Positions 36,399 through 52,266 of a stretch of 64,000 nt of DNA are shown in pieces. Location of the stretch: positions 213,426-277,425 of the forward strand of contig CAWDPO010000002.1 of assembly GCA_963804165.1 (NCBI GenBank), written 5' to 3'. Numbering within the stretch: position 1 is the stretch's first letter; each line of letters opens with the position of its first letter. Source of the DNA: an uncultured delta proteobacterium. Lineage in GTDB: Bacteria; Desulfobacterota; Binatia; UBA9968. The position numbers and the translations under genes were made by a program. Under the pieces are notes generated by a model. The model ran no database searches and was not told where the DNA came from. It saw only the letters and a program-made list of their open reading frames with translations.

Positions 36399-36486
36399 CG
36401 GAGTATTTGTTTCTATCCTCCCACCTCCAATCAGTTGGAATGCATGCGCATCTACCCAAGTTTCTGCAGCGCAACCCGCAATGTCA

Positions 36487-37500: not shown

Positions 37501-37533
37501 GCTGGTCCGCCTTCTCCTTTCGTATGCCTAAGC

Positions 37534-39196
37534 CTACTTCGGCCTGAGGGTCAGACTTTCTATTCTTGACAATCTGCCGCTAATTGCGCCGCCTGCTTCC
37601 TCAAAGGTTCGTTCTCGCTCATACGAACGGCCAAGCGCGACACCAAAGAACTCACTGATGCCTTCTGCACCAGCCTCCGTGGCGATCATGATCTGTCCCT
37701 GCTCACGGAAGTAATCGACTAGGGCGGAGCGCATGTCGGCGGTGCGCGAGCCCGTGACACGGTCCGTGCCCTGGTGACATTCCAGCCAATCGGCGTAGAT
37801 CGCCTTGGAACCGTCATCGGTATTGGAGCCGTTGAACAGGACGATGCCATCCTTCCACGGGCTGTCCGCCAATACTCGCAATAGATAACTCTGAGTGCGG
37901 CGGGATTCGGTGAAGATGATCGCCTTCTGCTCGGCGCCGAGTTCCACGGCTTTCTTCATGGCGATAGCGAGCGCCTTCAGCAAGGCTTTGCCCTTGCCGT
38001 TGTGGTCGATGGACGTGGCTAGACGGGCGAAGTTGTCGAGATCAGCGATCTCAGCCTCAATGGCGGCGCGGTCAGCTTCCGAAAGCGGTGAGGCGGGTTC
38101 GTCGTCGTCCCATTCTTCCGCGGTCTCGTCCAAGGCCTCGTAGTCTTGGTCGAGCTCTTCTTCCAACGGTTCTTTTGGCTCCTGCTTCTGCGAGCTTGGC
38201 CTTGAGCCGGTTCGAAATGGACGTGAGCGCTCCCGCTATGGCGAAACTCGAAGATGCCAGCAGCTTGCGCAAAACTAACGTCATCAGCGAGCGCTGGCTG
38301 GAGGGAAGCGCCTGGAGGTTCGGACGGCGCAAATATTCCGACACCAGTTCGTAGAGCTGGTCTTCGCTTTCCTCCGGCGTAAATTTTTCAAGAATTGGTA
38401 GACGCTTAGTATAAGGAATGTAGCCGGTAACCTGCCGACGCAATGTGCGATGGCAAATCGGCTTCAGACGCGCCTTGAGAGTTCGGAAGACTTGATCCTG
38501 AGACAGGTTGGCAAACTGCTCACGAAAACTTTTCAGATCGCCGAAAGCGTGCTCGTCGATGATGCTCGCGAGCCCGAAGAGTTCCAGCAGCGAATTTTGC
38601 AGCGGCGTAGCCGTGAGGAGAAGCTTGTGCCGGTCCTGCAATGCACCCTTGAGCGTGTTCGCAATTACATTGGAAGGCTTGTAAACGTTGCGCAGTCGAT
38701 GCGCTTCGTCGATCACAACGAGATCCCACGGCGTATTCGCGACGTCCGACGCCTTGCTGCGCGCAAAGTGGTAGGAGCAGATGACGATGGCGTCTTTCAC
38801 CTCGAACGGTTTGAAGAGCCCTTGTTTGATCGCGTCGTTATAGGACTTGGTCTCCAAGATCCGGCAAGGCAGAAAAAACTTTTCCGTTAGTTCCTGATGC
38901 CACTGCTTACGCAGATTGGACGGCACGATGACGAGAATGCGCCGCTTCCGCTCCGCCCATCGTTGCGAAAGGACCAGACCCGCCTCGATAGTCTTTCCCA
39001 GTCCGACTTCGTCAGCCAGCAGCGCGCCCTTCGAAAGCGGCGAGTTAAAAGCAAAGAGCGCCGCATCAACCTGGTGCGGATTGAGATCAACCTGCGCGCT
39101 GGCAACCGCGCCGGCGAGCTTCTCGATGCTGTCCGACGAGCAGCGCTTGGTCAGCTCATAAGCGTAGTATTTGGCGTGATAGGGAGTTAGATCCAT
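37534..39196 (-). pseudogene. SNF2/RapA-like helicase (defence-associated type), frameshifted and C-terminally truncated
   Basis: LNPHQ, LLADEVGLGKTIEAG, VIDEAH, LLTATPLQN, IIFTESRRTQ; homology ends at IMIATEAGAEGI (~37657). Confidence 0.85.
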
Positions 39197-39323
39197 TCGA
39201 CGTTATAATTCTCATCTGCCAGCGAGTTATGCCTCGCTTCATCGTCACCTAAATTCGAGTCGGTTTGGAGAAAACTCACCGGCGCGGTGGTGCGGCGCTC
39301 TGGGTTGATGTCGGGTCTAAATC

Positions 39324-39374
39324 GGCCAAAATTTCTCGTAGTCTATTAGATTTGACGGGTTTCTGACAAGGGCG
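39324..39374 (-). promoter_or_regulatory. 51-bp direct repeat copy A; sigma70-like TTGTCA-N18-TAGACT on the minus strand
   Basis: 45/51 identical to 51117..51167. Confidence 0.6.
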
Positions 39375-39841
39375 AATTATAAAAGGATAAGGGCAAAAGG
39401 ATTATCAACACCGCGGCCGGTTCCGAGCGTTCCAGGGTTCCAATGGTTCCAAACGTTCGAGGAATTAAAACCAAAGAGAGGAAACTTTCTTGTTTCGGAA
39501 ATTCTCAAAACGTCAAAATATAAATTCGCCCGAGCTTGGCGATGATCCCACTCAGGATGTTTGCCTCCTCGTCTCGTCGCGTAAAACCCCACTGACAAAA
39601 ACTTTTCGCGCTAATATCTAAAAGGTTAAGCAGGCTCGAAACGGATTGCAGTCTAATATTGGACAATTTTGAAAAGAATCTGGGGCGGGGGACTCGTGTT
39701 CGTGTTTCGTGGTGGGGAGAAGTGCCGTGTTCGTGGTCGTGGGGGGAACTTCCACGTTTCGAGAATTCTCGAAAGGTCGAAATGAGCAGTTTACATCGTT
39801 AAATAGAGCGACGACGCAATTCGGGGCCGGGCTGTGATGTC

Positions 39842-40165
39842 CTAGAGTTCTACGCGTAACAACTGGCCGGGGCGGCTCTTCGGAATAGCGGCGAGCAGAT
39901 TTGGCACGAGCGGACGGAGATCCTCAAGGGCATTACTTGGAGCGAAGAGAAGGATTATGCCGAGTTGCGATTGCGATAGGTTTTGCTGAAATTGTAGGTT
40001 GCGATCAGCGGTCACCAGAACATCAAAGCCCGCGTCAGCCGCGACCCGAAGGAGCTCGCCATTCTTAAGTCCGGCCCACCCGCGCTGCTGAACGGTGCTG
40101 ACATCGTGCCCGACGATGTCCCTGGCAAGGTGACGCGGCAGTTGTTCATCGAGCAGGACGCGCAT
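39842..40165 (-). CDS. DUF5615 PIN-like toxin (VapC45-type)
   Basis: MRVLLDEQLP, GWAGLKNGELL, LVTADRNL. Confidence 0.87.
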   Translation of the reverse strand: MRVLLDEQLPRHLARDIVGHDVSTVQQRGWAGLKNGELLRVAADAGFDVLVTADRNLQFQQNLSQSQLGIILLFAPSNALEDLRPLVPNLLAAIPKSRPGQLLRVEL

Positions 40166-40373
40166 CAGCGGTCAAAGCCTCGTGAGCGTTCTCAAGAACC
40201 GCGATGGCCTGTTCGCGAGAAACCGATGGAAATGCGTCGAGAAACTCATCGATATCATGTCCACGCTCGAGATAGTCAAAGAGGTTTCGCAGCGGGACGC
40301 GCGTGCCCACGAAGACGGGGGTTCCACCTAATATCTCCGGGTCGCGATGTACGACCGAAGGTTGGTTCGTCAT
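40146..40373 (-). CDS. DUF433 antitoxin
   Basis: DPEILGGTPVFVGTRVP..FLDAFP. Confidence 0.9.
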   Translation of the reverse strand: MTNQPSVVHRDPEILGGTPVFVGTRVPLRNLFDYLERGHDIDEFLDAFPSVSREQAIAVLENAHEALTADARPAR

Positions 40374-40589
40374 AAAAGCCTCCTGTCGAGACTATGCATC
40401 CTCGACTTTCCGCTTAACAATATATCCTAAGCCGAGCGACCGTCCAAATACAGTGAACCTCTCCGGACAGTCGCCGTGGCCGTAGCCTGGCAAAGGATAA
40501 ACGGCAAAGAGACGAAGGATAAAAGCCGTGATTGTGACCGGGGCGCATTCGTGTTCGTGATTCGTGATCGTGGATCGGGCTCCTTCAGG

Positions 40590-40851
40590 CTCCTTCAGGA
40601 GAACTACCGTAATCGTGCTCATCGTTAACCGATCAAAGCTGGTTCAAAGGTTCAAGGTTCAAAAGTTCAAGGTCAGATTCGGAAAGGGGGAACTTGCACG
40701 TTTTGACAATTCTCAAAACGTCAAAATACAAATTAACCCGATACAGGCGATGATCCCACCAAGGATGTTTGCCTTCGAGTCTCGCCGCTATCTAAAAGGT
40801 TAAGCAGGGTCGAAACGGATTGCAGTCTAATATTGGACAATTTTGAAAAGA
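40590..40851. repeat. Long non-coding repeat unit (GTTCAA tract + palindrome + promoter-like segment); full copy 44629..44925, partials 39481..39688 and 43445..43550
   Basis: Direct alignment by eye. Confidence 0.9.
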
Positions 40852-41052
40852 ATCTGGGGCGGCGCGGGGTTGGGGAAGGATAAGGGCAAAAGGATAAAGG
40901 ATAAAGGCCCGTGATCGTGGCAGTTCGAAAGGATGAGAAAAGGCGTCCTCGTGATTCCCCAACCTAAGGGGAAACTTCCACGTTTCGAGAATTCTCGAAA
41001 CGTCGAAATGAATTCGAATATCTCTGCAGCCGAGTTGAATTAGCGAGGACAA

Positions 41053-41265
41053 TCAGCTCTGCTTGCTGGAATAGTGCTCGCCGGCCTTTTTGTATATCTG
41101 TTCCAGACGCATCCCTTTGAAGAGTTTGCTTTGAATCTGGAGGTAATCGCCATTACCCTTGGAAAAGTGACGGAGAAAGCGGGCCGCTCCGCTATAGCCC
41201 AAGGCGTCGACCAATGCCCGAATACCGTTATCTACAAGATCTCGTTCGCTCCTAACCTTTGCCAT
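41053..41265 (-). CDS. Small protein, putative antitoxin partner of the PIN gene
   Basis: G..ALVDALG..GAARFL..GNGDY; overlaps the PIN gene end. Confidence 0.7.
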   Translation of the reverse strand: MAKVRSERDLVDNGIRALVDALGYSGAARFLRHFSKGNGDYLQIQSKLFKGMRLEQIYKKAGEHYSSKQS

Positions 41266-41719
41266 AACGACTGCCCTCGTTTCGTATGAATTCCACCGGA
41301 TTAACGACTTTCACTTGAAGCACCGACTGACGACCACCTCTCGACGCGCGTTGGATCAATGTATCGTCGCAGGTAATGAAGAAGTCGCATCCACCGTGTT
41401 GGGCGCACGCCACGTGAAGCGCATCCCTTGGTTTGAACTTTCGCAGCTTCATGAGCCGTCGAGCCAAAGTTAGAATTTGTGGCGATGGGGCAATTGTATC
41501 CGTACACATACGCGATAACAACTCGACCCATTCTTTGCGATCCGGGTGGGGATTCAGACCGTTCTCGTAATCCAACATGAAAGACCAGGTCAATTCCAAC
41601 CGCCCGGCTTCTGCCAATGCGTAGACGCCCTCTATCGCGGTGCATTCGAGCCTGATTCGGAGTTGATTTTGCTCATCGAAGCAGCGGTTATACACGTTTG
41701 TATCGCAATAGAGTTTCAA
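41252..41719 (-). CDS. PIN-domain protein
   Basis: LYCDTNVYNR.FD.Q.Q.RI, DALHVACA, FFITCDD, VVNPVEF. Confidence 0.88.
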   Translation of the reverse strand: MKLYCDTNVYNRCFDEQNQLRIRLECTAIEGVYALAEAGRLELTWSFMLDYENGLNPHPDRKEWVELLSRMCTDTIAPSPQILTLARRLMKLRKFKPRDALHVACAQHGGCDFFITCDDTLIQRASRGGRQSVLQVKVVNPVEFIRNEGSRYGKG

Positions 41720-41948
41720 AATGACGGCGTCCTAGTTGCAAACGTTTGCGAATTCTAGGCGATTTGGTGATCGGCAATCAAGGACGAAATGTGCCGATCG
41801 TTGGAGAGGGTATCGGTATGGGCTTGTTCGGCCAAACTCCGTGTTCGTCGCAGTTCGAAAGGATGAGAAAAGGCATCCTCGTGATTCCGGTCCAACCTAG
41901 GGCGGAACTTCCACGTTTCGAGAATTCTCGAAACGTCGAAATGAGGAT

Positions 41949-42248
41949 CTAAGCAAGCTGGCCCGACGCATGGATGATTTTCTCAAGAGCTTTTAATAGC
42001 GCGCGCGTTTCGCCGAAGTGCTTGAGCCAATAGCGAACTTCTTTCCCCGCCGTATCATACCGGACGATGTCAGCCGCGCGTAGCTTGGCGAGATGACCGC
42101 TGACCGTCTGCACCGAGCGACCGGCAAGCTTGGCAAGATTACTAGGAGTCATCGGCCCGCCGTCATCGAGAAGAACGACGAGCTGGTAGATCACCGGATT
42201 ACCGAGTAGCCGACAGATCCGCGATTCACGATATTTGGTTTCATCCAT
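41949..42248 (-). CDS. ArsR-family winged-helix regulator
   Basis: RLLGNP..Y, TVSGHLAKLRAADIV. Confidence 0.82.
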   Translation of the reverse strand: MDETKYRESRICRLLGNPVIYQLVVLLDDGGPMTPSNLAKLAGRSVQTVSGHLAKLRAADIVRYDTAGKEVRYWLKHFGETRALLKALEKIIHASGQLA

Positions 42249-42360
42249 CGCCGCGGTGTACGGCGAAATCATTATCGCTGTCAAGCTTGCTTCGACGTTT
42301 CGAGAATTCCCGAAACGTCGAAATGAGGAGGGACGTATTGACGGCGCGGTTTGAAAAAGA

Positions 42361-43188
42361 CTAACTGTTCGCGACTAATTTGTCGGCATTTTGCTGGAGA
42401 AGGTGGAGATGGTGGACGATCGCACGCCTTAGCTCCGGCGACGTAATCGATGGCGGTCTCGCGCTGTTGTACCGAGCGATAAATTCAGCGAGCTCTGATG
42501 AGCGCAGGACAGGAACGGTAGGGTTTCTGATCGAGAACCGGCCGTTGCCATTGACGAAAACAAGCAACGCAGTGACGAATGGGAGGCGGTTTCCTTGATC
42601 CGCAAAAACAGCCGTCAAGTTCTCTCTCACGGCGATGGCATTGCGCTTGGCCTGCTTGCTCAGGCTACGAATCTTCTTGCCGTTGACGAACCAATCGTCG
42701 CCGAAACATTTGACGAAGGTCGAATAGTTTTTGGTCTCGATCACAAACAGGCCGTTAGGGCCCATCACCAAGTGATCGACGTTGCCTTTGCCGTCCGGCA
42801 ACATGAGATCGTTTAACACGACGTAATGGTTGGACAGGGATCTAAGGGCATCGGATATCGCGATTTCACCGCGCTTACCGACGGACCAATTAGACCACCG
42901 CGTGAAATTGGCCTTGAACAGCGCGATCGCAAGCACGGTCGTGATCAATCCGACAAGCGGAAGTTGGACATAGCGCGTTGCGAAGATCGCAACGACAACG
43001 ATGGCGAAACACAAAAGCGCCTTTTTAAGATATTTGTGAATCTGTTGATCCGTGAACTTCCCGCCATTTCTGAGCATCAGCATGGCGAGCAGACAACGCA
43101 ACCACAATGCCACGCGGTGCATGGCCATTTTGCGGAACTTGCGGCGTTCTTTGGAAACCCGTTCACACTCGTTCGACAATACTGCCAA
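42361..43188 (-). CDS. NERD nuclease-domain protein with N-terminal TM helices (start uncertain)
   Basis: GKRGE, NVDHLVMGPNGLFVIETKNY, QAKRNA. Confidence 0.82.
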   Translation of the reverse strand: MAVLSNECERVSKERRKFRKMAMHRVALWLRCLLAMLMLRNGGKFTDQQIHKYLKKALLCFAIVVVAIFATRYVQLPLVGLITTVLAIALFKANFTRWSNWSVGKRGEIAISDALRSLSNHYVVLNDLMLPDGKGNVDHLVMGPNGLFVIETKNYSTFVKCFGDDWFVNGKKIRSLSKQAKRNAIAVRENLTAVFADQGNRLPFVTALLVFVNGNGRFSIRNPTVPVLRSSELAEFIARYNSARPPSITSPELRRAIVHHLHLLQQNADKLVANS

Positions 43189-43673
43189 CGTTGTCGGACA
43201 CCGGCGTGACCATGATCGTGATCGTAGATCGTGTTCGTGAGTCGGGAAACTGCGGCCGGCCCGTTCAAGCCATTCAAAGAGCCTGTCCTGAGTCCATCGA
43301 AGGGTTCAACCGCTACGCTCCATTCATCATGGGGGATCGTTCCGTTCAAATGGTTCAAGCCATTCAATGGTTCGGCCGGCTCACCATGACCGGCTCGATC
43401 GTCCGCTCCTCCTGAGATTTATCGAAGGATCGCTCCGTTCAAGTCGTTAACCGATCAAAGCTGGTTCAAAGGTTCAAGGTTCAAAAATTCAAGGTCAGAT
43501 TCGGAAAGGGGGAACTTCCACGTTTTGACAATTCTCAAAACGTCAAAATGTGAAGCCAGCCAGCAGACACTAGGCTACAGCGAGGAACCGCCGATTCAAA
43601 TGTTCAACCCTCAGGGCCGAACGAACATCCATGTTTCGCGGGAATTCTTCTCGAATCATCGGCAAGTTAGAGC

Positions 43674-44036
43674 CTATCTTCGTTTGTTTTTCTTGCGCTG
43701 GGCGCCGTACGACGCGGCGGATTCGGCGACATGCATCCCACTCTTTCTTTCTGCCGGCTCGAACACAACGCGTACCCGGGCGCGCAGGACGCTGGCGACC
43801 CGGCGAAGCGTACTCAACGAGTGACCTTCATAACCGGGGGATTCAAGACGGCTAATCTGCTGTTGCGAAGTTTTGAGCAACTTGGCGAGGTCCTTTTGGG
43901 ATAGCCCGGCCTTTTCGCGCAGTGCCGCAATCTGCAGCGCAACATCCCACGCCTCGCCAGCGCTCTTAAAGCGGGCGGCAAACTCCGGATCCTGGAGTTG
44001 CTTATCGAGATAGCGGTCGAAGTTGGTTCTTGTCAT
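43674..44036 (-). CDS. XRE/HTH antitoxin (HigA-like)
   Basis: LREKAGLSQKDLA..SQQQISRLE. Confidence 0.88.
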   Translation of the reverse strand: MTRTNFDRYLDKQLQDPEFAARFKSAGEAWDVALQIAALREKAGLSQKDLAKLLKTSQQQISRLESPGYEGHSLSTLRRVASVLRARVRVVFEPAERKSGMHVAESAASYGAQRKKNKRR

Positions 44037-44386
44037 GGCTCTGCTCTTTTTCTCCAGTCACGCATCCGTTCCCGTGCAGTATCGAGGTCACGAGCGGGGA
44101 TCGACTGCCCTTTGTTACGAATCCCGTGGAGCGCCACGATCCGACGGTTCTTCATAAAAAACCAGATAACGCGGGTGTTGAGCTTGCCGACATGACGCAG
44201 CTCAAAAAGACCATCTCCAAGCGTTTTGGACAGCGGCTCACGGTGATACTGGCGATTACGAAGTTTGGCCAAGCCCGCAACCACGGCAGCGAAGTCATCT
44301 GGATTAGTGGCTTTCAACTCGTCCAGGAACTCCCGCACCGGGCAGCTACCCGCCACCGTCTCATAGAACTCTACTATGAAATCCAT
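44033..44386 (-). CDS. RelE/ParE (HigB/Gp49-like) toxin
   Basis: VEFYET..G.CPVREFL, LFELR, RVIWF, IVALHG. Confidence 0.88.
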   Translation of the reverse strand: MDFIVEFYETVAGSCPVREFLDELKATNPDDFAAVVAGLAKLRNRQYHREPLSKTLGDGLFELRHVGKLNTRVIWFFMKNRRIVALHGIRNKGQSIPARDLDTARERMRDWRKRAEP

Positions 44387-45023
44387 TGGTTGGCAACATC
44401 AATATTGATGTATCACGCAGAACCACCCATTTATCATTTTGTACGCGTCTTGGCTCGTGCTCGTGACTCTACAAAGGATAAAGGCAAAGAGCAAAAGTAT
44501 CCAAAGGCAAAAGGCGGAAGGATAATCAAACAGGGCGTGAGCCGCGAGGCAACCTAAATAGCAATAGGCAACAGTCGGGAGCAGACAGAACCGAAAAGCC
44601 GTGGTTGTGCTCGTATTCGTGGATCGTGCTCCTTCAGGAGAACTACCGTGATCGTGCTCATCGTTAACCGATCAAAGCTGGTTCAAAGGTTCAAGGTTCA
44701 AAAGTTCAAGGTCAGATTCGGAAAGGGGAAACTTGCACGTTTTGACAATTCTCAAAACGTCAAAATACAAATTCGCCCGAGCTTGGCGATGATCCCACTT
44801 AGGATGTTTGCCTCTCGAGTCTCGCCGCGTAAAACCCCACTGAGAGAAACTTTTGGCGCTAATATATAAAAGGTTAAGCAGGCTCGAAACGGATTACAGT
44901 CTAATATTGGACAATTTTGAAAAGATTGGCCGGCTCGCGCAGGTGTTCGGGAAAAGCCGTGCTCGTGATCGTGGGGGGAAACTGTCGTGGACAGGGTAAC
45001 CGATATCTAGCGTGCTCTTGAAC

Positions 45024-45452
45024 CTACCGAGTAGGAAGTATCACAAAACGACCGATTCGTGAGGGGCGGTAGACTTGAAAGTCGCGACGGTCGAGGGTAA
45101 AAATCCGCCGCAACCGCTCGCGCTCTGCGACGCGCACTAGCGCGGCGTCAGCGAGGTCCATCGGCAGATCGCGATACTTGCGCATCAATTCCTTCATTCG
45201 CGGAACGTCATCGATGTTTAACAGCAGGATTTCCACCGCTCCCATTTCTATCATTGCCCACAGCGCCTCCTGGGCTTGCCAATAGGCTCTCAACATATAC
45301 ATGGCCTCGGTTATAACCGGCCACACGCTTACCATCGAATCGTTCAGCGAGCTGAGAGTCTCCTGGCAGGCAACGTGATCCGGATCACTGCGATCCAGCA
45401 AGGCCACCAGCGGCCCCGTATCAACGAGAACGGCGGGCATTGGCCTTTTCAC
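45024..45452 (-). CDS. vapC: VapC PIN toxin
   Basis: VLVDTGPLVA, VITEA, MDLADAALV, IFTLDRRDF. Confidence 0.9.
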   Translation of the reverse strand: MKRPMPAVLVDTGPLVALLDRSDPDHVACQETLSSLNDSMVSVWPVITEAMYMLRAYWQAQEALWAMIEMGAVEILLLNIDDVPRMKELMRKYRDLPMDLADAALVRVAERERLRRIFTLDRRDFQVYRPSRIGRFVILPTR

Positions 45453-45693
45453 GTAAAAGCTTAGAGAACTTTTCGCCGGTGTTTCGCGATAGGTTTGCGC
45501 CGCCGCTGTCGACGCAACCGATCAGATGGGCGACCAGATCATAGGGACGCTTCTTTCCCGCGTCTTTCTCTTCCTGCTTGGCAAGCACGCCGATCGCGTC
45601 CCGTATGACTTCAGACTTGCTCTGCCGTCGCCTTCGCGCTAACCGGCCAATCAGCGATTCCGTTTTTGCATCCAATCGAACACTTAAGGTCAT
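45421..45693 (-). CDS. RHH/CopG antitoxin
   Basis: LSVRLD..SKSEVIRDAI..LIGCVDSG..LS. Confidence 0.85.
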   Translation of the reverse strand: MTLSVRLDAKTESLIGRLARRRRQSKSEVIRDAIGVLAKQEEKDAGKKRPYDLVAHLIGCVDSGGANLSRNTGEKFSKLLREKANARRSR

Positions 45694-45859
45694 GCAAGCG
45701 ATCCTTCCTGTAATACGTCAGTGTACTACAAATAGATTCGACGAATCAACTAGGAAAGAGTTCAGGGAAAGGAGAAAGGCAAAAGGATACCATTGGTACG
45801 GCGGCCCCGTTCAAATCGTTCAAGCCGTTCAATCCCCGGGATCAAGTCCGGGGTCAAAA

Positions 45860-46006
45860 CTAGGAAAGGGAACTTGCACGTCTGACTGATGTGCCGAAAC
45901 GCAGCAGCTGTCCTCCCATGATCTGCGCCTCCGTTCTCTTCGGCAATTCTGCGAAAAGGCGGGTCACCGAAAGTGCGTAGGCCTTCGTCCGGATTTTGAG
46001 ATTCAT
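45860..46006 (-). pseudogene. Four-helix-bundle protein (23S rRNA IVP-like/TIGR02436), truncated
   Basis: Hand translation MNLKIRTKAYALSVTRLFAELPKRTEAQIMGGQLLRFGTSV, then runs into the palindrome half-site; flanked by inverted AAAGGAT heptamer tracts. Confidence 0.8.
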
Positions 46007-46339
46007 TCATCTCGCTCCGAGCTGTCCCTGATCTCTTCTCCTTTCTCCTTTAGATGGTTCGCCATCGCCGTCGGGCCTTAGCCTTTATCCTTCAGCCTTT
46101 ATCCTTTCAAGTTCGCCCTGGTTGTGCTCGTGGACGTGATTCGTGCCCTGTCCGCATAAACCCGTGGCGGCGTTCAAATCACGAAAATTAGCACCGAGGG
46201 GAACTTGCACGTTTTGACAATTCTCAAAACGTCAAAATGAGTATCAGTCCACCTTCGACGAGGCGTCTACGACCCTTTATGACTCACTCTGTCATCGCTC
46301 GGGATTTAGAAAAGATTGTTTACATCGTCGGGGCCAGTC

Positions 46340-48493
46340 TCAGGTAGTTCTCAGTTCTTCGATTCGAATCGGCAATTTTCGGATGCGCTTGCCGGTGCCG
46401 GTAAAGATAGCGTTGCATACCGCCGGCGCGAGCGGCGGCACACCGGGCTCTCCCACGCCGCCGGCCGGAGCGTTGCTGGGAACGATGTGAACGTCGATGG
46501 CTGGCATCTCGTTGATTCGCAGCATCGGATAGTCGTGGAAGTTGCTTTGCTGCACTCGCCCCTTGTCGATCGTAATGGCGCCGTAGAGCGCTGCCGTCAG
46601 ACCCCAGACGATGCTCCCTTCCACCTGAGCTTTGACCGTGTCGGGATTGACGACGGTGCCGCAGTCGATGGCGCAGACCACGCGATGAACCCGCACTTTG
46701 CCGTCTTTTTCGATCGAGATTTCGGCGACCTCGGCGGCGTAGCTGCCGTAGGAAAAAGCGACGGCAATCCCTCGGAGGCGTCCTTGCGGCAGCGGCTTTC
46801 CCCAATCGCCTTTCTCCGCGGCCAGCTCCAACACACCTTTGTGGCGCGCGGCCTTGGTGAGCAAGTCGCGCCGGAACTCGAAAGGGTCCTTTCCGGCGGC
46901 GGCCGCCAACTCGTCGATGAAAGACTCAGTGATGAAAGCGTTTTGGGACGCCCCGACCGAGCGCCAGAATCCGACAGGAATGCCGAGGTCTTTGTAAGTG
47001 TATTCAACTTGTAGATTGGGAATCGCATAAGGAAGATTGGCCGCGCCTTCGGTCATCAAAGAGTCGATGCCGTCTTTCAGCGGCCGGCCGTGTTGTACGC
47101 CGATGGAGGGAGCGACGATTCGGTGCAGCCAGGCTACGGGCGTTCCGCGCTCATCGAGGGCGGCGCGAAAAACGTTGTAGGTTGCAGGCCGATAGTGACC
47201 GTGCCTCGTATCATCTTCTCTCGACCAAATGACCTTGACGGGAGCGTTGACCGCCTTCGACGTTTCGACGGCATCAGCAACAAAATCCTGTTCGCCGCGC
47301 CGTCCGAAGCCGCCTCCCAACAGCATGGTGTTGACCTTGACCGCCTCCCGCGGAAATCCGGAGATGCGCATGGCGGTTCTCTGCGTGCCGGTCTGGTTTT
47401 GTGTTCCTACCCATACTTCACAGTTATTCTTCCTGACGTGGGCGGTGCAGTTCATCGGCTCCATCGTTGCGTGCGCGAGAAAAGGCACCTCGTAAATCGC
47501 ATCCATGGTTTTGGCAGCGCCGGCGAGCGTGGTTACCGCATCGCCTTCCTTGCGCGCCGCCGGTCCGGATTGCTTTGCGGCATCCGCATAAATGCGGCTG
47601 ATCTCAGCGCTGCTCAGTTGGGCGTTCGGTCCTTCGTCCCAGGTGATCTTGAGCGCCTCTCGGCCTTTCTTGGCGGCCCAATAACTGCTGGCCACCACCG
47701 CAACTCCGGAGCCGATTTGCACGACGTGGCGCACGCCTTTGACCGATTTGGCCTTGGTGGCGTCGAAGCTCGCCACCTTTCCGCCGAACACGGGGCAGCG
47801 CTGCACGGTCGCGATCAACATCCCCGGAACTTTTACGTCAATACCGTAAACGCCCCGGCCAGTGACTTTGTCCGGCGTATCCAGACGCGCAACCGCCTTG
47901 CCGATAAGACGAAATTGGTCGGGCGATTTGAGCTTGGGTTCTTTCGGCACCGGCAGCTGCGCGGCTTTGTCCGCAAGCTCACCGTAAGTGAGCTTTCTGC
48001 CGGATGGGCGATGGATGACCGTGTTTTGCTCCGCGAAGCATTCATCCGGGGAGACGCCCCATTCTTTTGCCGCTGCAGCAACCAACATCTCTCTGGCTGC
48101 CGCGCCCGCCCGGCGCCAAAGGGTTAGCATGTTGCGAATGCTCCGGCTGCCGTTGGTGGATTGCTCCCCGCCCCGTGCGGGGTCGCCGTAGTCCGGATGG
48201 GCCGGAGCCTGCTCGATGCGAACGTTCGACCACTGGGCTTCCAATTCATCAGCAATGATCATGGGAATCGACGTCATGACCCCCTGTCCCATCTCCGACT
48301 GGCCGACGATGATGGTCACGGTGCCGTCTCTGGCAATGCGGATCCAGGAATTGAGGGTGGCTTGCTCTGATGAGAGTGTTGCGGCTGCGGCCCACCGCCT
48401 GGAGGCCGGAACATGAAACCCAAGCAACAATCCGCCCGCAGCGATGCCTGCTTTGAGAAAACCACGCCGGCTCAGATTGACGATCGCGCTCAT
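46340..48493 (-). CDS. iorB: Isoquinoline 1-oxidoreductase beta-like Mo subunit (Tat signal)
   Basis: [44 protein letters not shown]. Confidence 0.9.
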
Positions 48494-48960
48494 TTCGCAC
48501 CTCCCTGGGCCAGGGTGCCCGCGACGCGGTGAATCGCACGGCGAATCCGCTGATACGTTCCACAGCGGCAGATGTTACCCGACAGCGCCGCGTCGATATC
48601 CGCGTCGCTGGGCTTGGGCTTTGCCGCCAGCAGGGCCGCGGCCGACATGATCTGGCCGGATTGGCAGTAGCCGCACTGGGGAACCTCCTCGGCGATCCAG
48701 GCTTTCTGAATCGGGTGGCTGCCGTCCGCTGAAAGCCCTTCGATCGTAGTGATCTTCTTTTCCTTGACGGATGCGATCGGCGTGATGCAAGAACGAATCG
48801 GTTGACCATCGACATGGATGGTGCAAGCGCCGCACTGCGCGATGCCGCAACCGAACTTGGTGCCAGTTAAGCCGAGGTTTTCACGGAGCACCCAGAGCAG
48901 AGGAGTGTCGGAATCGACGTCTACTTGGTACTTCTTGCCGTTCACGATGATTGGGATCAT
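48490..48960 (-). CDS. iorA: Isoquinoline 1-oxidoreductase alpha-like (2Fe-2S) subunit
   Basis: [41 protein letters not shown]. Confidence 0.92.
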
Positions 48961-49580
48961 GTATCCCTCCTCATTTTATTAAGTGAACGCGATGGGGAGC
49001 GTAGCTGAACTCTTCATATCACAGGTCTAACTTGAGGTCGATACGGTGGCCGCATCAGTTGAGCAGCGGAACTCGCCGATGTGTTGAAGCCGTGTTCGGA
49101 GAAGGGACGTGATCGTGGATCGTGCTCGAGAGAACCGTCGTGGGCGAGTTTCAAAGGATAAGGGCGAAAGGACTCTGAAAAGGATGAAGGCAAAGGGATA
49201 AAGGATAAGGGCCGTGAGCGTGTATCGACACCAGTTGCGTGTTCGTGATTTACGCGCTCCCGAAGACCGAGACCGTTCAAATGGTTCGACCGTTCGAGAA
49301 GCCTCACGGCAGGCTGCCTCGACGGCCTTCAGTTCCGAGCCCGTCGAGGAATCACCACGATGGGCTCGATCGTCCGCTCGTTCCTTCGATAAGACTCAGC
49401 ACGGGCTCTGAGCTGGTGAAAGGATGCGCTCCGTTCCCCGCGTTGCGGCGGTTCAAGCGTTCAAAGTTCAAAGACAGACTCGGGTGGGGAACTTCCATGT
49501 TTCGGGAATTCTCGAAACGTCGAAATGTTGAGCCAGGCAACAGCCGTGACAGCTCATACCGGCCGATTTGCTATGCCGTC

Positions 49581-49787
49581 CTAGGCCCGGCTTTCCGCTT
49601 GCAGCTTCAGAGCGTCATCTATCTGGATGTGACCGTCACGTATGGCTTGGCAAGCTCGCAACGCATGGAGCTCGGCCATCATCTGGTCGTTTGGAAATTC
49701 TTTTCCGATAAGCTCAACGAGTTTCCGTAACTTTTGGTCAGGTATCTTTGCGTCGCGAGCAACCGGCTGATAGTCAAAATACCTCAT
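49581..49787 (-). CDS. Small hypothetical protein
   Basis: AGGAG RBS, 68 aa, no recognised motif. Confidence 0.6.
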   Translation of the reverse strand: MRYFDYQPVARDAKIPDQKLRKLVELIGKEFPNDQMMAELHALRACQAIRDGHIQIDDALKLQAESRA

Positions 49788-49857
49788 GGCACTTCTCTCC
49801 TTTAAATTTCCGGTGGAGCGATGATTTCGATGGTCGGGAGTCTGTGAGAGCGTTCGC

Positions 49858-50202
49858 TCAGGGCTTTGATTCCAGCGCGCGCAACATGACTTGGACCTTA
49901 CCCTTTAAATCCGGCAAATCGCGTTGAACCGCATCCCAAACAATATCGATGTCGATCACGAAATAGTCGTGAACAAGAATATGGCGCATGCCTATGATCT
50001 CAGTCCATGGAATGTCCGGCCGTTGATCGCGTAATTTTTGGGGAAGCGCGTAGGCCGCTTCACCGATAATCTGAAGATGACGCACGAACCAATTCTGGAT
50101 AAGTTCATCGCTCTCAAACGCCGGTCTGCCACGCGCGGCATAGCGTTCGATACTCGCTATGGCCTCCAGAATATCGCGGAGGCGTTCCTTGGGGTCCCTC
50201 AT
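49858..50202 (-). CDS. HepT-like ribonuclease (DUF86, HEPN)
   Basis: [21 protein letters not shown] (Rx4H). Confidence 0.9.
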
Positions 50203-50486
50203 AAAAACTCGGCCTCTTTTAGGACACGATCGCGAATCCGCGGCTTAAGGCCTTGCTCGGTCACGACGTCCACCTCTAGCCCGAGCAAATCACGCAAATC
50301 CATCAGCAAGCCCCCCATGTCGAACAGTGTGCGGCCCGGCTCCATATCAACGAGAAAGTCTACGTCGCTGTCCAGTCTAGCTTCGCCACGGGCCACTGAC
50401 CCAAAAATCCGAATGTTGCGCGCCCCGTGCTTAGCAGCGATTTTAAGGATGTCGTTCTTCTTTGCTATGACTCCAGCCGTATCCAT
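50199..50486 (-). CDS. MntA-like minimal nucleotidyltransferase antitoxin
   Basis: IFGSVARGE...SDVDFLV..VDVV. Confidence 0.9.
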
Positions 50487-50550
50487 AGCCTTGCCCTTTT
50501 CCATATATTCTATTTTATCCCCTCGGCCCGTTAGATCGCCACTCTAAGAA

Positions 50551-50931
50551 TTACGCGCCCTTATGTTGCCTTCTGTTCTTGATTTGTGTGTTCTCTTTAA
50601 AGACACGCACCGCGTCGCGCTCGACGGCTTTACGGAAGCTCGAACCGCTTCGCCTCCGGCTTTCCCACTCGTCTTGGGTGTAAGCGAGAATAGAAGGTAG
50701 CACTTCGGTCTTTGCAGCCAATAAGTAACCGATGCGCCGCAGCTCTCTCTTAAGGGCTTTTGCGTCGTTCTTGACGATAAGGATAATATCCACATCGCTT
50801 TCGGCGTGCGCTTGTCCGCGTGCTTTCGAGCCGTAGATGAGCATTTCTTGAACCGTGCCTGGATGCTTCTTGTTCAGAGCTTCCCGGTACACATCAAGCC
50901 ACGCCTGCTCTTCCGACCTAAGTTGAAGCAT
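50551..50931 (-). CDS. Nucleotidyltransferase domain protein (second MNT)
   Basis: IYGSKARG...SDVDI. Confidence 0.85.
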   Translation of the reverse strand: MLQLRSEEQAWLDVYREALNKKHPGTVQEMLIYGSKARGQAHAESDVDIILIVKNDAKALKRELRRIGYLLAAKTEVLPSILAYTQDEWESRRRSGSSFRKAVERDAVRVFKENTQIKNRRQHKGA

Positions 50932-51116
50932 CGATTATCTCGCCTCCGATCGCGCGCCGCTTCCGTTCGTCGTCTGTGACAGTTTCGTTTGATCGCCGTT
51001 CGTTGGAATCAACTCGTCTGTCCTTTCGGCGGTGATCCCTTGGGAAGGTTAACTTTTTAACGGTGATTTCCGGCGTAGCCCCGCGCGGAGATCTGGCTAT
51101 AGCGCCATTCCTGGTT

Positions 51117-51167
51117 GGCCAAAATTTTTTGTAGTCTATTAGATTTGGCGGGTTTCGGGCAAGAGCG
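51117..51167 (-). promoter_or_regulatory. 51-bp direct repeat copy B; promoter-like TTGCCC-N18-TAGACT at the head of the cassette array
   Basis: 45/51 identical to 39324..39374. Confidence 0.55.
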
Positions 51168-51459
51168 TTCTTAAACTATAAATTAGAAAGGATAAAGGAT
51201 CATCATCCCTCGATCGCCAAGGTCACTCACGATTGTTCTACTGCGCTGACAAATTTCCTGGCCAGTTGACGGACAGTTTTGAAAAAACTCTTGCCCTAAC
51301 GACATTGGAATAGACCACTCGATTAGCAATCGAGTGATCTCGCTGCTACGTGGAAGGACAGAACGTCGCCATCGAGTACCGCGATAGGCGCTCGAACCGC
51401 CCGGTAGCGAGTGTACATCACCGCAGCGAGGTTCGGCCTGACTCAGGTAGTGCAGAACT

Positions 51460-52178: not shown

Positions 52179-52266
52179 TCACTTAATCACCCTGTCCGCA
52201 CGCGCCAGCACGTTCGGCGGAATGGTTAAGCCGATTTGCTTTGCGGTTTTAAGATTGATGATCAAA
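52179..52266 (-). pseudogene. C-terminal fragment of an ABC_sub_bind family protein (shorter copy at 55320..55360)
   Basis: IINLKTAKQIGLTIPPNVLARADRVIK*. Confidence 0.75.

What the first reader, a model, noticed from the sequence alone, without database searches (positions are those of the whole stretch)
39481..51167. Integron-like cassette array of TA and other genes delimited by a non-attC ~42-bp palindrome
Seen: ten full copies (about 39481, 39741, 40686, 40968, 41904, 42291, 43508, 44725, 46198, 49486) and one half copy (45868) of GGGGAACTT-CCACGTTTCGAGAATTCTCGAAACGTCG-AAATG, all in the same orientation. Just past the AAAT(G/A) end the sequence switches into a new unit. Every gene in the array is on the minus strand and points toward a site. 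Stop codons lie ~5-125 bp from the site for DUF433/DUF5615, PIN+partner, ArsR, NERD, HigBA-like, iorAB and HepT/MNT; VapC/RHH lies just beyond a non-coding unit. Known: integron arrays are TA-rich and co-oriented, but attC needs RYYYAAC...GTTRRRY ends, which are absent; 'spacers' of ~0.2-3.2 kb exclude CRISPR. Inference: a gene-cassette capture/shuffling system with its own recombination or HUH-cleavage site, with the recombinase acting in trans (none in the array).
Basis: partly seen in the sequence, partly recalled or inferred. Interest (0 to 1): 0.9.

Follow-up and report, generated by a model that had tools for sequence, protein, structure and literature searches.

The report
Non-integron gene-cassette array in Binatia
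A soil bacterium of the uncultured class Binatia carries a row of small accessory gene units, mostly toxin-antitoxin pairs, each bounded by the same 37-base hairpin-forming site; the site is not an integron site, yet the units are reshuffled at it between genomes, which suggests an undescribed gene-cassette system.

Summary
Ten co-oriented copies of a polar palindromic site, plus two truncated ones, lie between 39476 and 49531, and none lie elsewhere in the window. All annotated genes in the array are on the minus strand, with stop codons facing the AAATGA end of a site.

- **Distribution.** The conserved core is 37 nt. It occurs in 77 of 90 genomes of one family (record titles: Candidatus Binatia / 'delta proteobacterium' MAGs). 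It occurs in 0 of 337 genomes sampled from 19 other families of the class.
- **Arrangement.** Neighbouring sites are co-oriented (106 pairs against 5) with a median spacing of about 1 kb.
- **Not a known element.** It is not attC: the R boxes are absent and the site is too short. Attc-like sites I found with a crude screen for the attC pattern sit beside intI genes in relatives. It is also not a terminator, not a CRISPR, not in Rfam, and not the flanking repeat of the local IS200-like gene.
- **Shuffling.** The same cassettes occur in other orders in other genomes. Two near-identical ArsR cassettes in one array match exactly from site edge to site edge. Site 1 of the window is a chimera whose switch point lies at the palindrome centre.
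- **Open point.** No recombinase was identified, and IntI involvement is not excluded.

Best reading (about 0.5): this is a family-specific, integron-like cassette system with its own hairpin recombination site. The main rival is a REP-like structural hairpin that is recombined passively.

The parts
39476..39521 (+). site 1, a chimeric copy with a type-A-like left arm and a type-B right arm
   Evidence: nhmmer 41.5 bits. The chimera is shown by alignment A3.
39522..39740 (-). non-coding unit, copy 1. It is sRNA-like, with a terminator-like hairpin plus T-run on the minus strand at 39542-39526.
   Evidence: Three copies in the window plus copies in G032 and G045. Terminator-like hit.
39741..39789 (+). 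site 2
   Evidence: nhmmer 57.5 bits
39842..40373 (-). DUF5615 (PIN-like) and DUF433 gene pair
   Evidence: Pfam PF18480 at 2.1e-09 and PF04255 at 9.1e-17. Homologous block together with site 2 in G032 and G044.
40685..40729 (+). site 3 (type B)
   Evidence: nhmmer 47.0 bits
40730..40966 (-). non-coding unit, copy 2
40967..41013 (+). site 4
   Evidence: nhmmer 59.3 bits
41053..41719 (-). PIN-domain toxin (41252-41719) and a small partner ORF (41053-41265)
   Evidence: Pfam PF01850 at 9.2e-08. 90% identical block in G032 and 87% in G034.
41900..41947 (+). site 5
   Evidence: nhmmer 58.3 bits
41949..42284 (-). ArsR-type winged-helix regulator, a minimal cassette flanked directly by sites 5 and 6
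   Evidence: Pfam HTH_20/HTH_5. The unit with both sites recurs in at least 7 genomes and three times in the G020 array.
42289..42330 (+). site 6 (fully paired variant, CGAC...GTCG)
   Evidence: nhmmer 48.2 bits
42361..43188 (-). NERD nuclease-related protein
   Evidence: Pfam PF08378 at 2e-19
43507..43554 (+). site 7 (type B)
   Evidence: nhmmer 53.0 bits
43674..44386 (-). HigBA-like pair: Gp49 toxin 44033-44386 and HTH antitoxin 43674-44036
   Evidence: Pfam PF05973 at 2.4e-14 and HTH_3 at 6.2e-09. Homologues at 71-88% in at least 15 genomes.
44724..44768 (+). site 8 (type B)
   Evidence: nhmmer 45.1 bits
44769..44982 (-). non-coding unit, copy 3. It ends in a truncated site (GGGGGGAAACT, then unrelated sequence).
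45024..45693 (-). VapC-like PIN toxin (45024-45452) and RHH antitoxin (45421-45693)
   Evidence: Pfam PF01850 at 2e-11 and PF01402 at 7e-06
45861..45877 (+). truncated or decayed site (left arm only)
   Evidence: sequence
46196..46243 (+). site 9 (type B)
   Evidence: nhmmer 49.9 bits
46340..48960 (-). molybdopterin-binding subunit (46340-48493) and 2Fe-2S subunit (48490-48960) of an aldehyde-oxidase/IorAB-type oxidoreductase
   Evidence: Pfam MoCoBD_1/2 and Fer2_2. Orthologues at 74-85% in 5 other genomes have no sites nearby.
49486..49531 (+). site 10
   Evidence: nhmmer 58.2 bits
49858..50931 (-). HepT (49858-50202), MNT (50199-50504) and a second MNT-type nucleotidyltransferase (50551-50931)
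   Evidence: Pfam PF01934 at 1.7e-27, PF01909 at 3.9e-13 and 1.6e-08
39324..39374 (-). 51-nt promoter-like element, copy A, upstream of the SNF2 gene
   Evidence: Direct repeat D14, 88%. Promoter-like TTGTCA-18-TAGACT on the minus strand. Also found inside arrays of G045, G032 and G044.
51117..51205 (-). 51-nt promoter-like element, copy B, plus a truncated low-complexity linker. This is the upstream end of the array and has no terminal site.
   Evidence: The G045 homologue runs on to a site.

Best explanation
The region 39.3-51.2 kb is an array of about a dozen mobile gene cassettes. Most are toxin-antitoxin pairs. The others are an ArsR-type regulator, a NERD protein, a 2.7-kb oxidoreductase operon and a repeated sRNA-like unit. 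All are transcribed from the minus strand.

The cassettes are separated by a 37-nt polar hairpin-forming site, CTT-CCACGTTTCGRGAATTCYCGAAACGTSG-AAATGA. This site is peculiar to one family of the class Binatia.

I propose that the site is the recombination site of an integron-like but non-integron cassette system:
- Recombination between two directly repeated sites excises or duplicates a cassette.
- Recombination with a site elsewhere inserts it.
- Arrays in different genomes therefore hold overlapping cassette sets in different orders.

**Shown**
- The site, its polarity and its family-restricted conservation.
- Paired changes that keep the two arms complementary.
- Co-orientation of sites at roughly 1-kb spacing.
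- Cassette reshuffling between genomes.
- Duplicates whose identity ends at site edges.
- One chimeric site with its switch at the palindrome centre.

**Inferred**
- That a dedicated enzyme, encoded elsewhere, does this, and not general recombination.
- That the site acts as a folded single strand. The conserved C x C mismatch makes the two strands' hairpins unequal, as extrahelical bases do in attC.
- Where the strands are exchanged.
For: 1. **Reality and polarity.** There are 10 co-oriented copies against 0 expected. Alignment of 150 sites shows conservation from CTT to AAATGA and none beyond.
2. **Family trait.** The pattern occurs in 77 of 90 family genomes and 22 of 23 genera, and the reversed-pattern control gives 0. 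It occurs in 0 of 337 genomes of 19 other families of the class. There is no match in plasmids or phages.
3. **Array geometry.** This genome has 31 sites, 22 of them on two contigs: 10 in this array on C2 and 12 on C34 in two oppositely oriented groups. Across 57 loci, adjacent sites 5 kb apart or less are co-oriented in 106 pairs against 5, with median spacing 1052 nt.
4. **Symmetry is maintained.**
   - Pair 30-41 is C-G in 116 sites, T-A in 30 and other in 4.
   - 88 cells have changes on both sides, against 37.9 in shuffles.
   - 0 of 500 shuffles reach the observed covariation score.
   - Sliding the partner columns lowers pairing from 89% to 30-53%.
5. **Modularity.**
   - Single cassettes of the window recur at 70-100% identity in other genomes in other orders. 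Examples are G045, G034 and G032.
   - The ArsR unit recurs from the left edge of one site to the right edge of the next in at least 7 genomes.
   - In the G020 array, two copies are near-identical over about 430 nt, exactly from ATACTT... to ...GAAATGA, with unrelated flanks.
6. **Chimeric site.** The left flank and left arm of site 1 match a copy on contig C34. Its right arm and the following unit match sites 3 and 8. The switch lies within about 10 nt of the palindrome centre.
7. **Capture-like pattern.** The oxidoreductase operon has sites on both sides here. Its orthologues in 5 other genomes have none within the fetched flanks.
8. **Cassette content.** It is typical of cassette arrays: ParE/Phd, HigBA, MqsA, DUF4258, 23S_rRNA_IVP, ORF6N, APH, a chromate transporter and many ORFs without a family.
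9. **Soil-metagenome contigs.** Contigs from 4 runs of 3 studies hold single cassettes and end or diverge at sites. One 1266-nt contig leaves the window sequence exactly after position 41944, the AAAT end of site 5.
Against: - No recombinase was found in or beside any array examined. The 20 most recurrent protein clusters around sites that I scanned (of the 25 listed) contain none.
- Many homology blocks between genomes end at the stop and start of genes rather than at the site. Examples are HigBA and the oxidoreductase operon. At 74-88% identity this may only reflect faster decay of non-coding DNA.
- A 40-nt repeat could support RecA-dependent exchange, so site-edge boundaries do not prove a site-specific enzyme.
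- Arm hybrids between the two site types are rare (4 of 150). Routine crossing-over at the centre between the two types would make them common.
- Two truncated sites in the window break at different positions.
- The upstream end of the array is a truncated linker, not a site.
- The enrichment of open frames that end at the AAATGA side is modest: 45 of 111 against 28 of 111 for frames of at least 100 codons, using crude open frames.
- The assemblies are treated as MAGs. The titles of similar public records say MAG, and this genome is 81% complete with 5% contamination. Repeats can cause mis-joins, and one genome per species gives no strain-level comparison.
Confidence: 0.5

Rival explanations
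1. The site is a REP-like structural hairpin. It is a family-specific extragenic palindrome at the 3' end of accessory genes. It would be selected for an RNA- or DNA-level role, such as mRNA 3'-end protection or processing, insulation between units, or binding of a nucleoid or topoisomerase-type protein. The reshuffling would be a passive by-product of homologous recombination between dispersed copies.
For: - The site lies after stop codons, including at isolated sites spaced 8-28 kb apart on contig C12.
- It forms a stable hairpin, -10.5 to -12.2 kcal/mol as DNA.
- Paired changes keep the arms complementary.
- No recombinase travels with it.
- Homology between genomes often stops at gene ends.
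- The family carries many IS200-like Y1 genes: 79 of 90 genomes and 17 matches here.
Against: - Copy number is low and strongly clustered: 31 per 7.5 Mb, 22 of them on two contigs.
- Neighbouring sites are almost always co-oriented, 106 pairs against 5. By my recollection, REP clusters alternate in orientation.
- The Y1 gene in the window is flanked by different inverted repeats. Of the 6 Y1 loci of this genome listed, 5 are on contigs without sites.
- None of the 13 terminator-like hits of the array coincides with a site, and the 3' side of the hairpin is A-rich on both strands.
- Orthologues of the oxidoreductase operon elsewhere lack the site. The site therefore goes with array membership and not with the gene.
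- Sequence, and not only structure, is conserved across 22 genera.
Confidence: 0.25
2. The site is a minimal, non-canonical attC used by the family's own integron integrases. The array would then be a cluster of attC sites lacking an integrase (CALIN).
For: - Integron integrases above the curated cut-off occur in 33 of 90 family genomes.
- In my hand tally of the 55 genomes at least 90% complete:
  - 5 or more sites with IntI: 19
  - 5 or more sites without IntI: 13
  - fewer than 5 sites with IntI: 6
  - fewer than 5 sites without IntI: 17
  This is a positive association.
- The cassette architecture matches: co-oriented ORFs with the site at the 3' end, rich in toxin-antitoxin pairs.
- According to passages of PMC4889954, CALINs are common and half of them lie in genomes without IntI.
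- The conserved mismatch makes the two strands' hairpins unequal, as attC's extrahelical bases do.
Against: - The R boxes (RYYYAAC ... GTTRRRY) are absent, and the site has 37 nt. By recollection, attC sites are at least about 57 nt long.
- Attc-like hairpins of 57-136 nt that pass my crude screen (GCCTAAC...GTTAGGC type) exist within 20 kb of intI in 6 of 8 relatives. Those 16 flanks (the 1.7-kb stub L028 was left out of this screen) held no palindrome site by my weaker regex detector.
- In the 7-contig genome G020, the main array and both intI genes lie on different contigs.
- 13 site-rich, near-complete genomes have no IntI above the cut-off, for example G073 with 40 sites at 98% completeness. 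G040 and G050 have IntI but 0-1 sites.
- This genome has no IntI: the best match is 105 bits against a cut-off of 265. However, it is only 81% complete.
Confidence: 0.12
3. The site is an operator for a dimeric DNA-binding regulator, for example the ArsR-type protein encoded inside the arrays, which co-regulates the units. Two site types would then mean two regulator specificities.
For: - The palindrome is near-perfect, with sequence conserved across genera.
- The ArsR gene is flanked directly by two sites, and one of them lies just upstream of its start.
- Two discrete site types (A and B) occur with few hybrids.
Against: - ArsR homologues were found in only 44 of 90 genomes. They are missing from site-rich genomes such as G014 (25 sites), G041 (15) and G071 (15).
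- Isolated sites follow stop codons. By my crude ORF calls, they are often followed by a convergent ORF, which is not an operator position.
- Several symmetric variants coexist within one genome.
- The conserved asymmetric AAATGA tail and the C x C mismatch are not expected of a symmetric operator.
Confidence: 0.08
4. The apparent reshuffling is an assembly artefact. Contigs from metagenomes may be mis-joined at a 40-nt repeat.
For: - The assemblies are treated as MAGs. Public record titles of similar sequences say MAG, and this genome is 81% complete with 5% contamination.
- Short-read contigs from soil runs break at the sites.
Against: - The site is shorter than usual assembly words.
- The same architecture appears in assemblies with contigs of 1-3.5 Mb, namely G020, G043 and G044.
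- Co-orientation, family restriction and paired changes cannot arise from mis-assembly.
Confidence: 0.03

Closest known systems
Chromosomal integron cassette arrays and CALIN (attC-delimited cassettes)
   Same: - Co-oriented small ORFs, rich in toxin-antitoxin pairs and unknown proteins.
- One imperfect palindromic site after each unit, with roughly 1-kb spacing.
- Site type conserved within a taxon.
- Cassette order differs between genomes.
- Arrays occur without an adjacent integrase.
   Different: - No R''/R' boxes.
- 37 nt with a nearly perfect 14-bp stem and a 4-nt loop, instead of a bipartite attC of at least about 57 nt with an unpaired central spacer and a variable terminal structure (attC features recalled).
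- Not adjacent to intI in any genome examined.
- The family's intI genes have their own attC-like sites nearby (by my crude screen).
- Several cassettes carry long low-complexity linkers and their own promoter-like elements.
REP/BIME elements with RAYT (Y1 HUH) transposases
   Same: - A short, taxon-specific extragenic palindrome downstream of genes.
- The host family is rich in IS200-like Y1 genes.
   Different: - Tens of copies per genome, not hundreds.
- Concentrated in accessory-gene arrays.
- Direct orientation, not alternating.
- Not found flanking the Y1 genes examined.
- No conserved 5' tetranucleotide of the REP kind (REP features recalled).
Xer-dependent dif modules (pdif/Re27 sites) of Acinetobacter plasmids
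   Same: - Short recombination sites bound discrete modules.
- The modules often carry toxin-antitoxin or resistance genes and appear in different contexts.
- The recombinase is encoded elsewhere.
   Different: - By recollection, those sites are 28-nt 11-6-11 sites with distinct XerC and XerD arms, and they alternate in orientation around modules.
- Here the arms are nearly identical, sites are directly repeated, and the arrays are chromosomal in an unrelated phylum.

Membership tests
Integron attC site / integron or CALIN | Terminal R'' (RYYYAAC) and R' (GTTRRRY) boxes that pair with each other | tested here: not met
   - My screen for this pattern plus a hairpin found 0 candidates in the array and 0 in window 1-39 kb.
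- The same screen found 1-3 candidates in 7 of 16 intI flanks of relatives.
- The consensus ends of 150 sites are ...ACTTCC and GAAATGA....
- The screen is crude and needs exact consensus boxes.
Integron attC site / integron or CALIN | Bipartite structure (R-L boxes, unpaired central spacer, extrahelical bases, variable terminal structure); length about 57-141 nt (recalled) | tested here: not met
   - The conserved core is 37 nt, forming one continuous 14-bp stem with a 4-nt loop.
- A partial analogue exists: a conserved C x C mismatch in 122 of 150 sites.
Integron attC site / integron or CALIN | Integron integrase (IntI with its specific extra domain) adjacent to or in the same genome as the array | tested here: not met
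   - TIGR02249 in this genome scores at best 104.9 bits against a cut-off of 265. Matches lack model positions 182-240, and none lies on contig C2. The genome is 81% complete.
- In G020 the intI genes are on contigs other than the one with the main array.
Integron attC site / integron or CALIN | Recognition by IntegronFinder's attC covariance model | not testable with these tools
   The model is not available here. Rfam 15 gives no match at gathering score or at E <= 1.
Integron attC site / integron or CALIN | Co-oriented cassettes, each an ORF or ORFs followed by one site | tested here: met
   All Pfam-supported genes are on the minus strand and face a site. Co-oriented neighbouring sites number 106 pairs against 5.
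REP/BIME with RAYT | High copy number, dispersed through extragenic space of the whole genome | tested here: not met
   31 copies in 7.5 Mb on 6 of 46 contigs, 22 of them on two contigs.
REP/BIME with RAYT | Cognate Y1 (RAYT) gene flanked by the repeat | tested here: not met
   - The Y1_Tnp gene at 28573-29130 is flanked by other inverted repeats.
- The Y1 gene on C34 is 5-6.5 kb from the nearest sites.
- The other 5 listed Y1 loci are on contigs without sites.
Intrinsic (Rho-independent) terminator | G+C-rich hairpin followed by a T-run on the transcribed strand | tested here: not met
   None of the 13 terminator-like hits in 39000-51600 coincides with a site. The hairpin is followed by AAATGA on the + strand and by AAGT... 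on the minus strand.
CRISPR array | Short repeats separated by short unique non-coding spacers of similar length | tested here: not met
   Spacing is 264-3288 nt, and most intervals hold protein-coding genes.
Xer/dif-type site (dif modules) | Two different 11-nt arms around a 6-nt centre; alternating orientation around modules (recalled) | tested here: inconclusive
   The palindrome can be read as 11-6-11 around GAATTC, but its arms are near-identical and the sites are directly repeated.
Operator of the array-borne ArsR-type regulator | Regulator present wherever the sites are | tested here: not met
   Homologues occur in 44 of 90 genomes against sites in 77 of 90. They are absent from G014, G041 and G071, which have 15-25 sites. 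The test used one protein query at E <= 1e-8.

The most novel reading that the evidence does not exclude
One family of Binatia has a second gene-cassette system that is independent of integrons. A 37-nt hairpin site, whose conserved mismatch makes its two strands unequal, is recombined by an undescribed trans-acting enzyme. This builds, duplicates and reshuffles arrays of toxin-antitoxin and other accessory cassettes, side by side with ordinary integrons in the same lineage.
Probability: 0.35. Interest if true: 0.9.

Novelty: new variant of a known kind. Interest (0 to 1): 0.72.

Why it matters
Integrons are the only well-understood system in which single genes are captured and reordered as cassettes. 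Both their origin and the origin of cassettes remain open questions.

A second cassette system would give an independent case for comparison. It has a much simpler site, it occurs in an uncultured soil lineage, and it coexists with ordinary integrons. It would offer:
- a compact, well-defined site (37 nt) with which to look for a new recombinase;
- a marker for mining accessory gene pools (toxin-antitoxin and defence-type genes) of Binatia from soil metagenomes.

If the site proves to be only a structural hairpin, it is still a family-diagnostic element. It would show how short repeats organise accessory-gene islands.

Tried and rejected
**Working assumption corrected**
- I first assumed a planctomycete from composition and repeats (recall only). 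Record titles of matching public contigs name Binatia or 'delta proteobacterium' MAGs instead.

**Searches that found nothing**
- Rfam: no match at gathering score for the window and none at E <= 1 for the array.
- tRNA/tmRNA: none in the window.
- Plasmid and phage collections: no match to a 53-nt query around site 5.
- Literature:
  - Four literal motif strings gave 0 papers.
  - 'attC, Planctomycetes, integron' gave listings only, and I read passages of PMC8352920 and PMC4889954.
  - 'Pirellulaceae, toxin-antitoxin, repeat, palindromic' gave nothing relevant in the 12 listed.
  - 'Binat*, integron, gene cassette, attC' gave no paper holding Binat* among the 10 listed.
  - Supplements were not opened. 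The supplementary tables of PMC8352920 with taxon-specific attC models may bear on the attC question.

**Synteny**
- DNA searches of both flanks in the genus found no syntenic locus. They found only short repeats, an SNF2 block in G043, G041 and G027, and a 97% identical GDSL gene in G050.
- A tblastx search of the flanks against six array loci of relatives found nothing.
- Strain-level comparison at one locus was therefore impossible.

**Candidate partners**
- The ArsR-type regulator is not obligatory.
- The Y1/HUH transposase shows no association with the sites.
- Multi-copy tyrosine recombinases of this genome lie on contigs without sites.
- The left flank of the G020 array holds an rve/Mu-transposase-C gene, but nothing similar recurs near sites elsewhere.

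**Reads**
- No run holds more than 24% of the sampled words, and all are short contigs.
- The 'joints' have sides of 22-48 nt in generic linker repeats, at 92% likeness. I do not count them as evidence of excision. Uncovered bins mean nothing.

**Other**
- My note 3 said IntI and sites were uncorrelated. A fuller hand tally shows a positive association, corrected in note 4 and above.
- No structure prediction, complex prediction or large protein-database search was run. They did not bear on a DNA site.

Full report
**1. The observation**

The repeat is in the sequence as described.
- The 22-nt core with up to three mismatches occurs 9 times, against 0 in 100 shuffles.
- The repeat finder aligns 10 copies of 40 nt.
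- An nhmmer profile built from this genome's copies finds exactly ten hits in the 64-kb window.

There are two truncated copies, not one.
- One is a left arm at about 45861-45877.
- The other is a stub, GGGGGGAAACT, at about 44970-44982, which ends the third copy of a non-coding unit.

- DUF5615/DUF433
- PIN, with a partner ORF that has no Pfam match
- an ArsR-type HTH protein
- NERD
- Gp49/HTH (HigBA-like)
- PIN/RHH
- a molybdopterin plus 2Fe-2S oxidoreductase pair
- HepT/MNT
- a second MNT

The flanks hold a split SNF2 gene and a GDSL-type gene on the left. On the right they hold an excisionase-type HTH_17 ORF and an amylase-family gene. No recombinase lies in the array or its immediate flanks.

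**2. Anatomy of the site**

I aligned 150 copies from the window and from other genomes.
- Conservation runs from CTT to AAATGA: CTT-CCACGTTTCGRGAATTCYCGAAACGTSG-AAATGA.
- Nothing is conserved to the right.
- To the left, only genus-specific sequence is conserved: GGGGAA in this genus, and other sequences in G020.

The (GTTCAAnnn)n tracts to the left of many sites in this genome are a genome-wide feature. There are 173 occurrences on 33 contigs, and only 12 lie within 400 nt of a site. I do not count them as part of the site.

The inner 32 nt form a palindrome. As single-stranded DNA it folds into a 14-bp stem with a 4-nt loop. The energy is -10.5 kcal/mol on the + strand and -12.2 kcal/mol on the minus strand.

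Pair counts on the 150 sites:
- 89.2% of cells are paired, falling to 30-53% when partners are slid.
- One pair is C-G in 116 sites, T-A in 30 and anything else in only 4.
- 88 cells have changes on both sides, against 37.9 in shuffles.
- 0 of 500 shuffles reach the observed covariation score.
- One position is a conserved C x C mismatch in 122 of 150 sites.

Together with the AAATGA tail, that mismatch gives the site a polarity and makes the hairpins of the two strands different.

Two discrete types coexist within arrays: type A (TTTCGrG...CyCGAAA) and type B (TTTTGAn...nTCAAAA). In some genomes they stand as B-A dyads 51-63 nt apart.

One caveat applies. The A-to-B change is a pair of CpG transitions, so mutation bias contributes. 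Even so, the near absence of half-changed sites argues for selection on symmetry.

**3. Distribution**

This genome is 7.5 Mb in 46 contigs, 81% complete. It holds 31 sites:
- 10 in this array on C2
- 12 on contig C34, in two oppositely oriented groups
- 5 on C12
- 2 on C9
- 1 each on C26 and C42

A degenerate 24-nt pattern with up to 2 mismatches occurs in 77 of 90 genomes of the family (22 of 23 genera), at 1-40 copies per genome. The reversed-pattern control gives 0 everywhere.

In a sample of 401 genomes of the class, the pattern occurs in 47 of 63 family genomes plus this one. It occurs in 0 of 337 genomes of 19 other families, including 31 of the same order.

An exact 32-nt pattern finds 51 stretches in the public species-representative genomes. 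Their titles read as follows:

| Record title | Stretches |
|---|---|
| Candidatus Binatia | 18 |
| uncultured delta proteobacterium | 19 |
| Deltaproteobacteria bacterium | 7 |
| Syntrophobacter(aceae) | 5 |
| beta proteobacterium | 1 |
| Candidatus Udaeobacter | 1 |

Plasmid and phage collections hold nothing similar.

I collected 195 distinct sites. In 57 loci, adjacent sites 5 kb apart or less are co-oriented in 106 pairs and opposed in 5. Median spacing is 1052 nt, with quartiles 384 and 1559.

Open frames of at least 100 codons that end within 200 nt of the AAATGA side and point at the site occur at 45 of 111 sites. The figure is 28 of 111 on the other side. These are crude open frames, and the enrichment is modest.

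**4. What it is not**

*attC.*
- My screen asks for R''/R' boxes plus a hairpin. It finds 0 candidates in the array and 0 in the first 39 kb of the window.
- The same screen finds GCCTAAC...GTTAGGC-type hairpins of 57-136 nt within 20 kb of intI. It finds them in 7 of 16 flanks from 8 relatives.
- Those flanks held no palindrome site by a simple detector allowing up to 6 substitutions to one variant. That detector is weaker than the later profile.
- Integron integrases above the curated cut-off occur in 33 of 90 family genomes.
- This genome has none. Its best match is 104.9 bits against a cut-off of 265, without the IntI-specific segment, and nothing lies on contig C2.
- In the 7-contig genome G020, a 22-kb array of about 20 sites lies on one contig and both intI genes lie on others.

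IntI is still not excluded. I tallied by hand the 55 genomes that are at least 90% complete:

| | IntI above cut-off | No IntI above cut-off |
|---|---|---|
| 5 or more sites | 19 | 13 |
| Fewer than 5 sites | 6 | 17 |

*Terminator.* None of the 13 terminator-like hits coincides with a site. The 3' side of the hairpin is A-rich on both strands.

*Rfam family.* There is no match.

*REP of a RAYT.*
- The IS200-like gene at 28573-29130 has different flanking inverted repeats.
- The one on C34 lies 5-6.5 kb from the nearest sites.
- Five other listed copies lie on contigs without sites.

*Operator of the array's ArsR protein.* Homologues occur in 44 of 90 genomes. They are absent from site-rich genomes such as G014, G041 and G071.

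**5. Evidence that the units move at the sites**

*(a) Different orders.* A DNA search of the array against the family finds its units singly, in other orders.
- In G045, one contig reads site - HigBA (88%) - site - DUF5615-like - site - ... - MNT (89%) - site.
- Another G045 contig reads PIN piece (100%) - promoter-like element - site - non-coding unit - ... - site - ArsR (94%) - site - NERD.
- In G034, PIN (87%) is followed directly by HigBA (79%).

*(b) The ArsR unit.* It recurs from the left edge of its downstream site to the right edge of its upstream site in G049, G044, G043, G011, G017, G018 and G074. It recurs three times in the G020 array.
- Two of the G020 copies are near-identical over about 430 nt.
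- Their identity begins at ATACTTCCACG... and ends at ...GTCGAAATGA.
- The sequence is unrelated on both sides.

*(c) A chimeric site.* Site 1 of the window is a chimera.
- Its left flank and left arm match a copy on contig C34.
- Its right arm and the following non-coding unit match sites 3 and 8.
- The switch lies within about 10 nt of the palindrome centre.

*(d) The oxidoreductase operon.* It has sites on both sides here. Its orthologues (74-85% identical) in G044, G008, G014, G023 and G018 have none within the fetched flanks.

*(e) Soil-metagenome contigs.* Contigs of four runs from three studies carry single units at 92-99% identity and end or diverge at sites. One 1266-nt contig leaves the window sequence right after 41944, the AAAT end of site 5. 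This is weak evidence, because short contigs break at any repeat.

Several points count against a simple picture.
- Many homology blocks stop at gene ends.
- A/B arm hybrids are rare.
- The two truncated sites break at different places.
- The upstream end of the array is a truncated low-complexity linker, whereas the G045 homologue runs on to a site.

**6. Content and surroundings**

The most recurrent protein clusters around sites in about 65 loci are as follows:
- ParE/Phd
- HigA and HigB types
- ORF6N
- DUF4258
- 23S_rRNA_IVP
- MqsA-type
- DUF5615
- solute-binding proteins
- several families without a Pfam match

No recombinase, transposase or HUH protein recurs.

Elsewhere in this genome, sites follow an APH-type kinase, a chromate transporter, a peptidoglycan-binding protein and DUF445.

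The repeated 200-nt non-coding unit has a terminator-like hairpin plus T-run on the minus strand, just before the next site. It may be an sRNA gene.

**7. Mechanism and verdict**

The best-supported reading is a cassette array whose boundaries are a family-specific hairpin site at which units are excised, duplicated and inserted.
- The architecture works like an integron array.
- The site fails the tested attC criteria and is not linked to intI, so I do not file it as an integron.
- That a dedicated enzyme acts on the site, and that the site acts as a folded single strand, are inferences.
- The main rival is a REP-like hairpin recombined passively by host functions.
- A non-canonical attC served by the family's IntI, and an operator, are less likely.

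**8. Caveats**
- The assemblies are treated as MAGs, with one genome per species.
- My ORF calls outside the window are crude.
- The attC screen is strict and home-made.
- The tallies include four unpublished genomes: G019, G022, G041 and G060.
- I found no paper describing the motif in the searches listed. Supplements were not seen.

Noticed in passing
window 49273-49437 (also G000 C12:30912-31074, 31816-31980, 35601-35752; C34:114724-114863, 134525-134663, 141773-141910; C1, C11): A structured repeat of about 165 nt with nested hairpins.
- It has about 11 full or partial copies in this genome.
- Its 80-86-nt core is 91-99% identical in genomes of other genera.
- In one copy, the loop of the 9-bp-stem hairpin is inverted.
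- It is not in Rfam.
- It may be a MITE-like element or an ncRNA.
   Followed up: partly
window 52179-52266: An 87-nt element repeated many times across the genus, often at roughly 1-kb spacing within a contig. By my own reading of the minus strand, it encodes a conserved C-terminal peptide tail ending in a stop codon. What it belongs to was not examined.
   Followed up: no
window 36434-37541: The GDSL-type gene is 97% identical to two loci in G050. One of them lies between two integron-integrase genes of that genome. This suggests recent horizontal transfer, possibly as an ordinary integron cassette.
   Followed up: no
window 28573-29130 with 28323-28354 / 29210-29241; also 36310-36395: An IS200-like Y1 transposase gene is flanked by its own inverted repeats. 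A copy of its right-flank repeat (...GGCCTCTAAG...CAAGATCTTGCCTTGGTCCGACC) lies downstream of the GDSL gene. This could be a separate REP/RAYT-like pair.
   Followed up: partly
whole genome G000; e.g. window 40649-40682, 43471-43504, 44688-44721: Tracts with a 9-nt period, (GTTCAAnnn)n, occur 173 times on 33 contigs. They also occur beside an intI gene in G043 in both orientations. Other low-complexity linker repeats, (AAGGATA)n and (CGTGATC)n, fill the space upstream of cassette genes. Their function is unknown.
   Followed up: partly
window 60001-64000: G+C jumps to 73-75%, from about 50-58% before it, at the end of the contig. Open frames there match MlaD, an ABC ATPase and MlaE. It could be foreign DNA, a mis-binned piece or a mis-join.
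   Followed up: no
window 37534-39196: The SNF2-family gene next to the array is split into two overlapping ORFs: the SNF2 N-terminal domain (38072-39196) and a weak helicase-C part (37534-38166). It is probably broken.
   Followed up: no
L038:12339-12494, 16340-16495; L097:1973-2116; L065:3963-4106 and others: In other genomes, a type-B site is often followed 51-63 nt later by a type-A site with no gene between. These may be empty junctions or a composite double site.
   Followed up: partly
L038:1206-3591 (G020, left of its main array): An rve-integrase/Mu-transposase-C gene lies a few kb left of the first site of the G020 array. Further genes follow towards the array, among them a DUF4007 gene, a weakly AAA/DUF6079-like gene and an HTH gene. 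It was not seen near arrays elsewhere.
   Followed up: no
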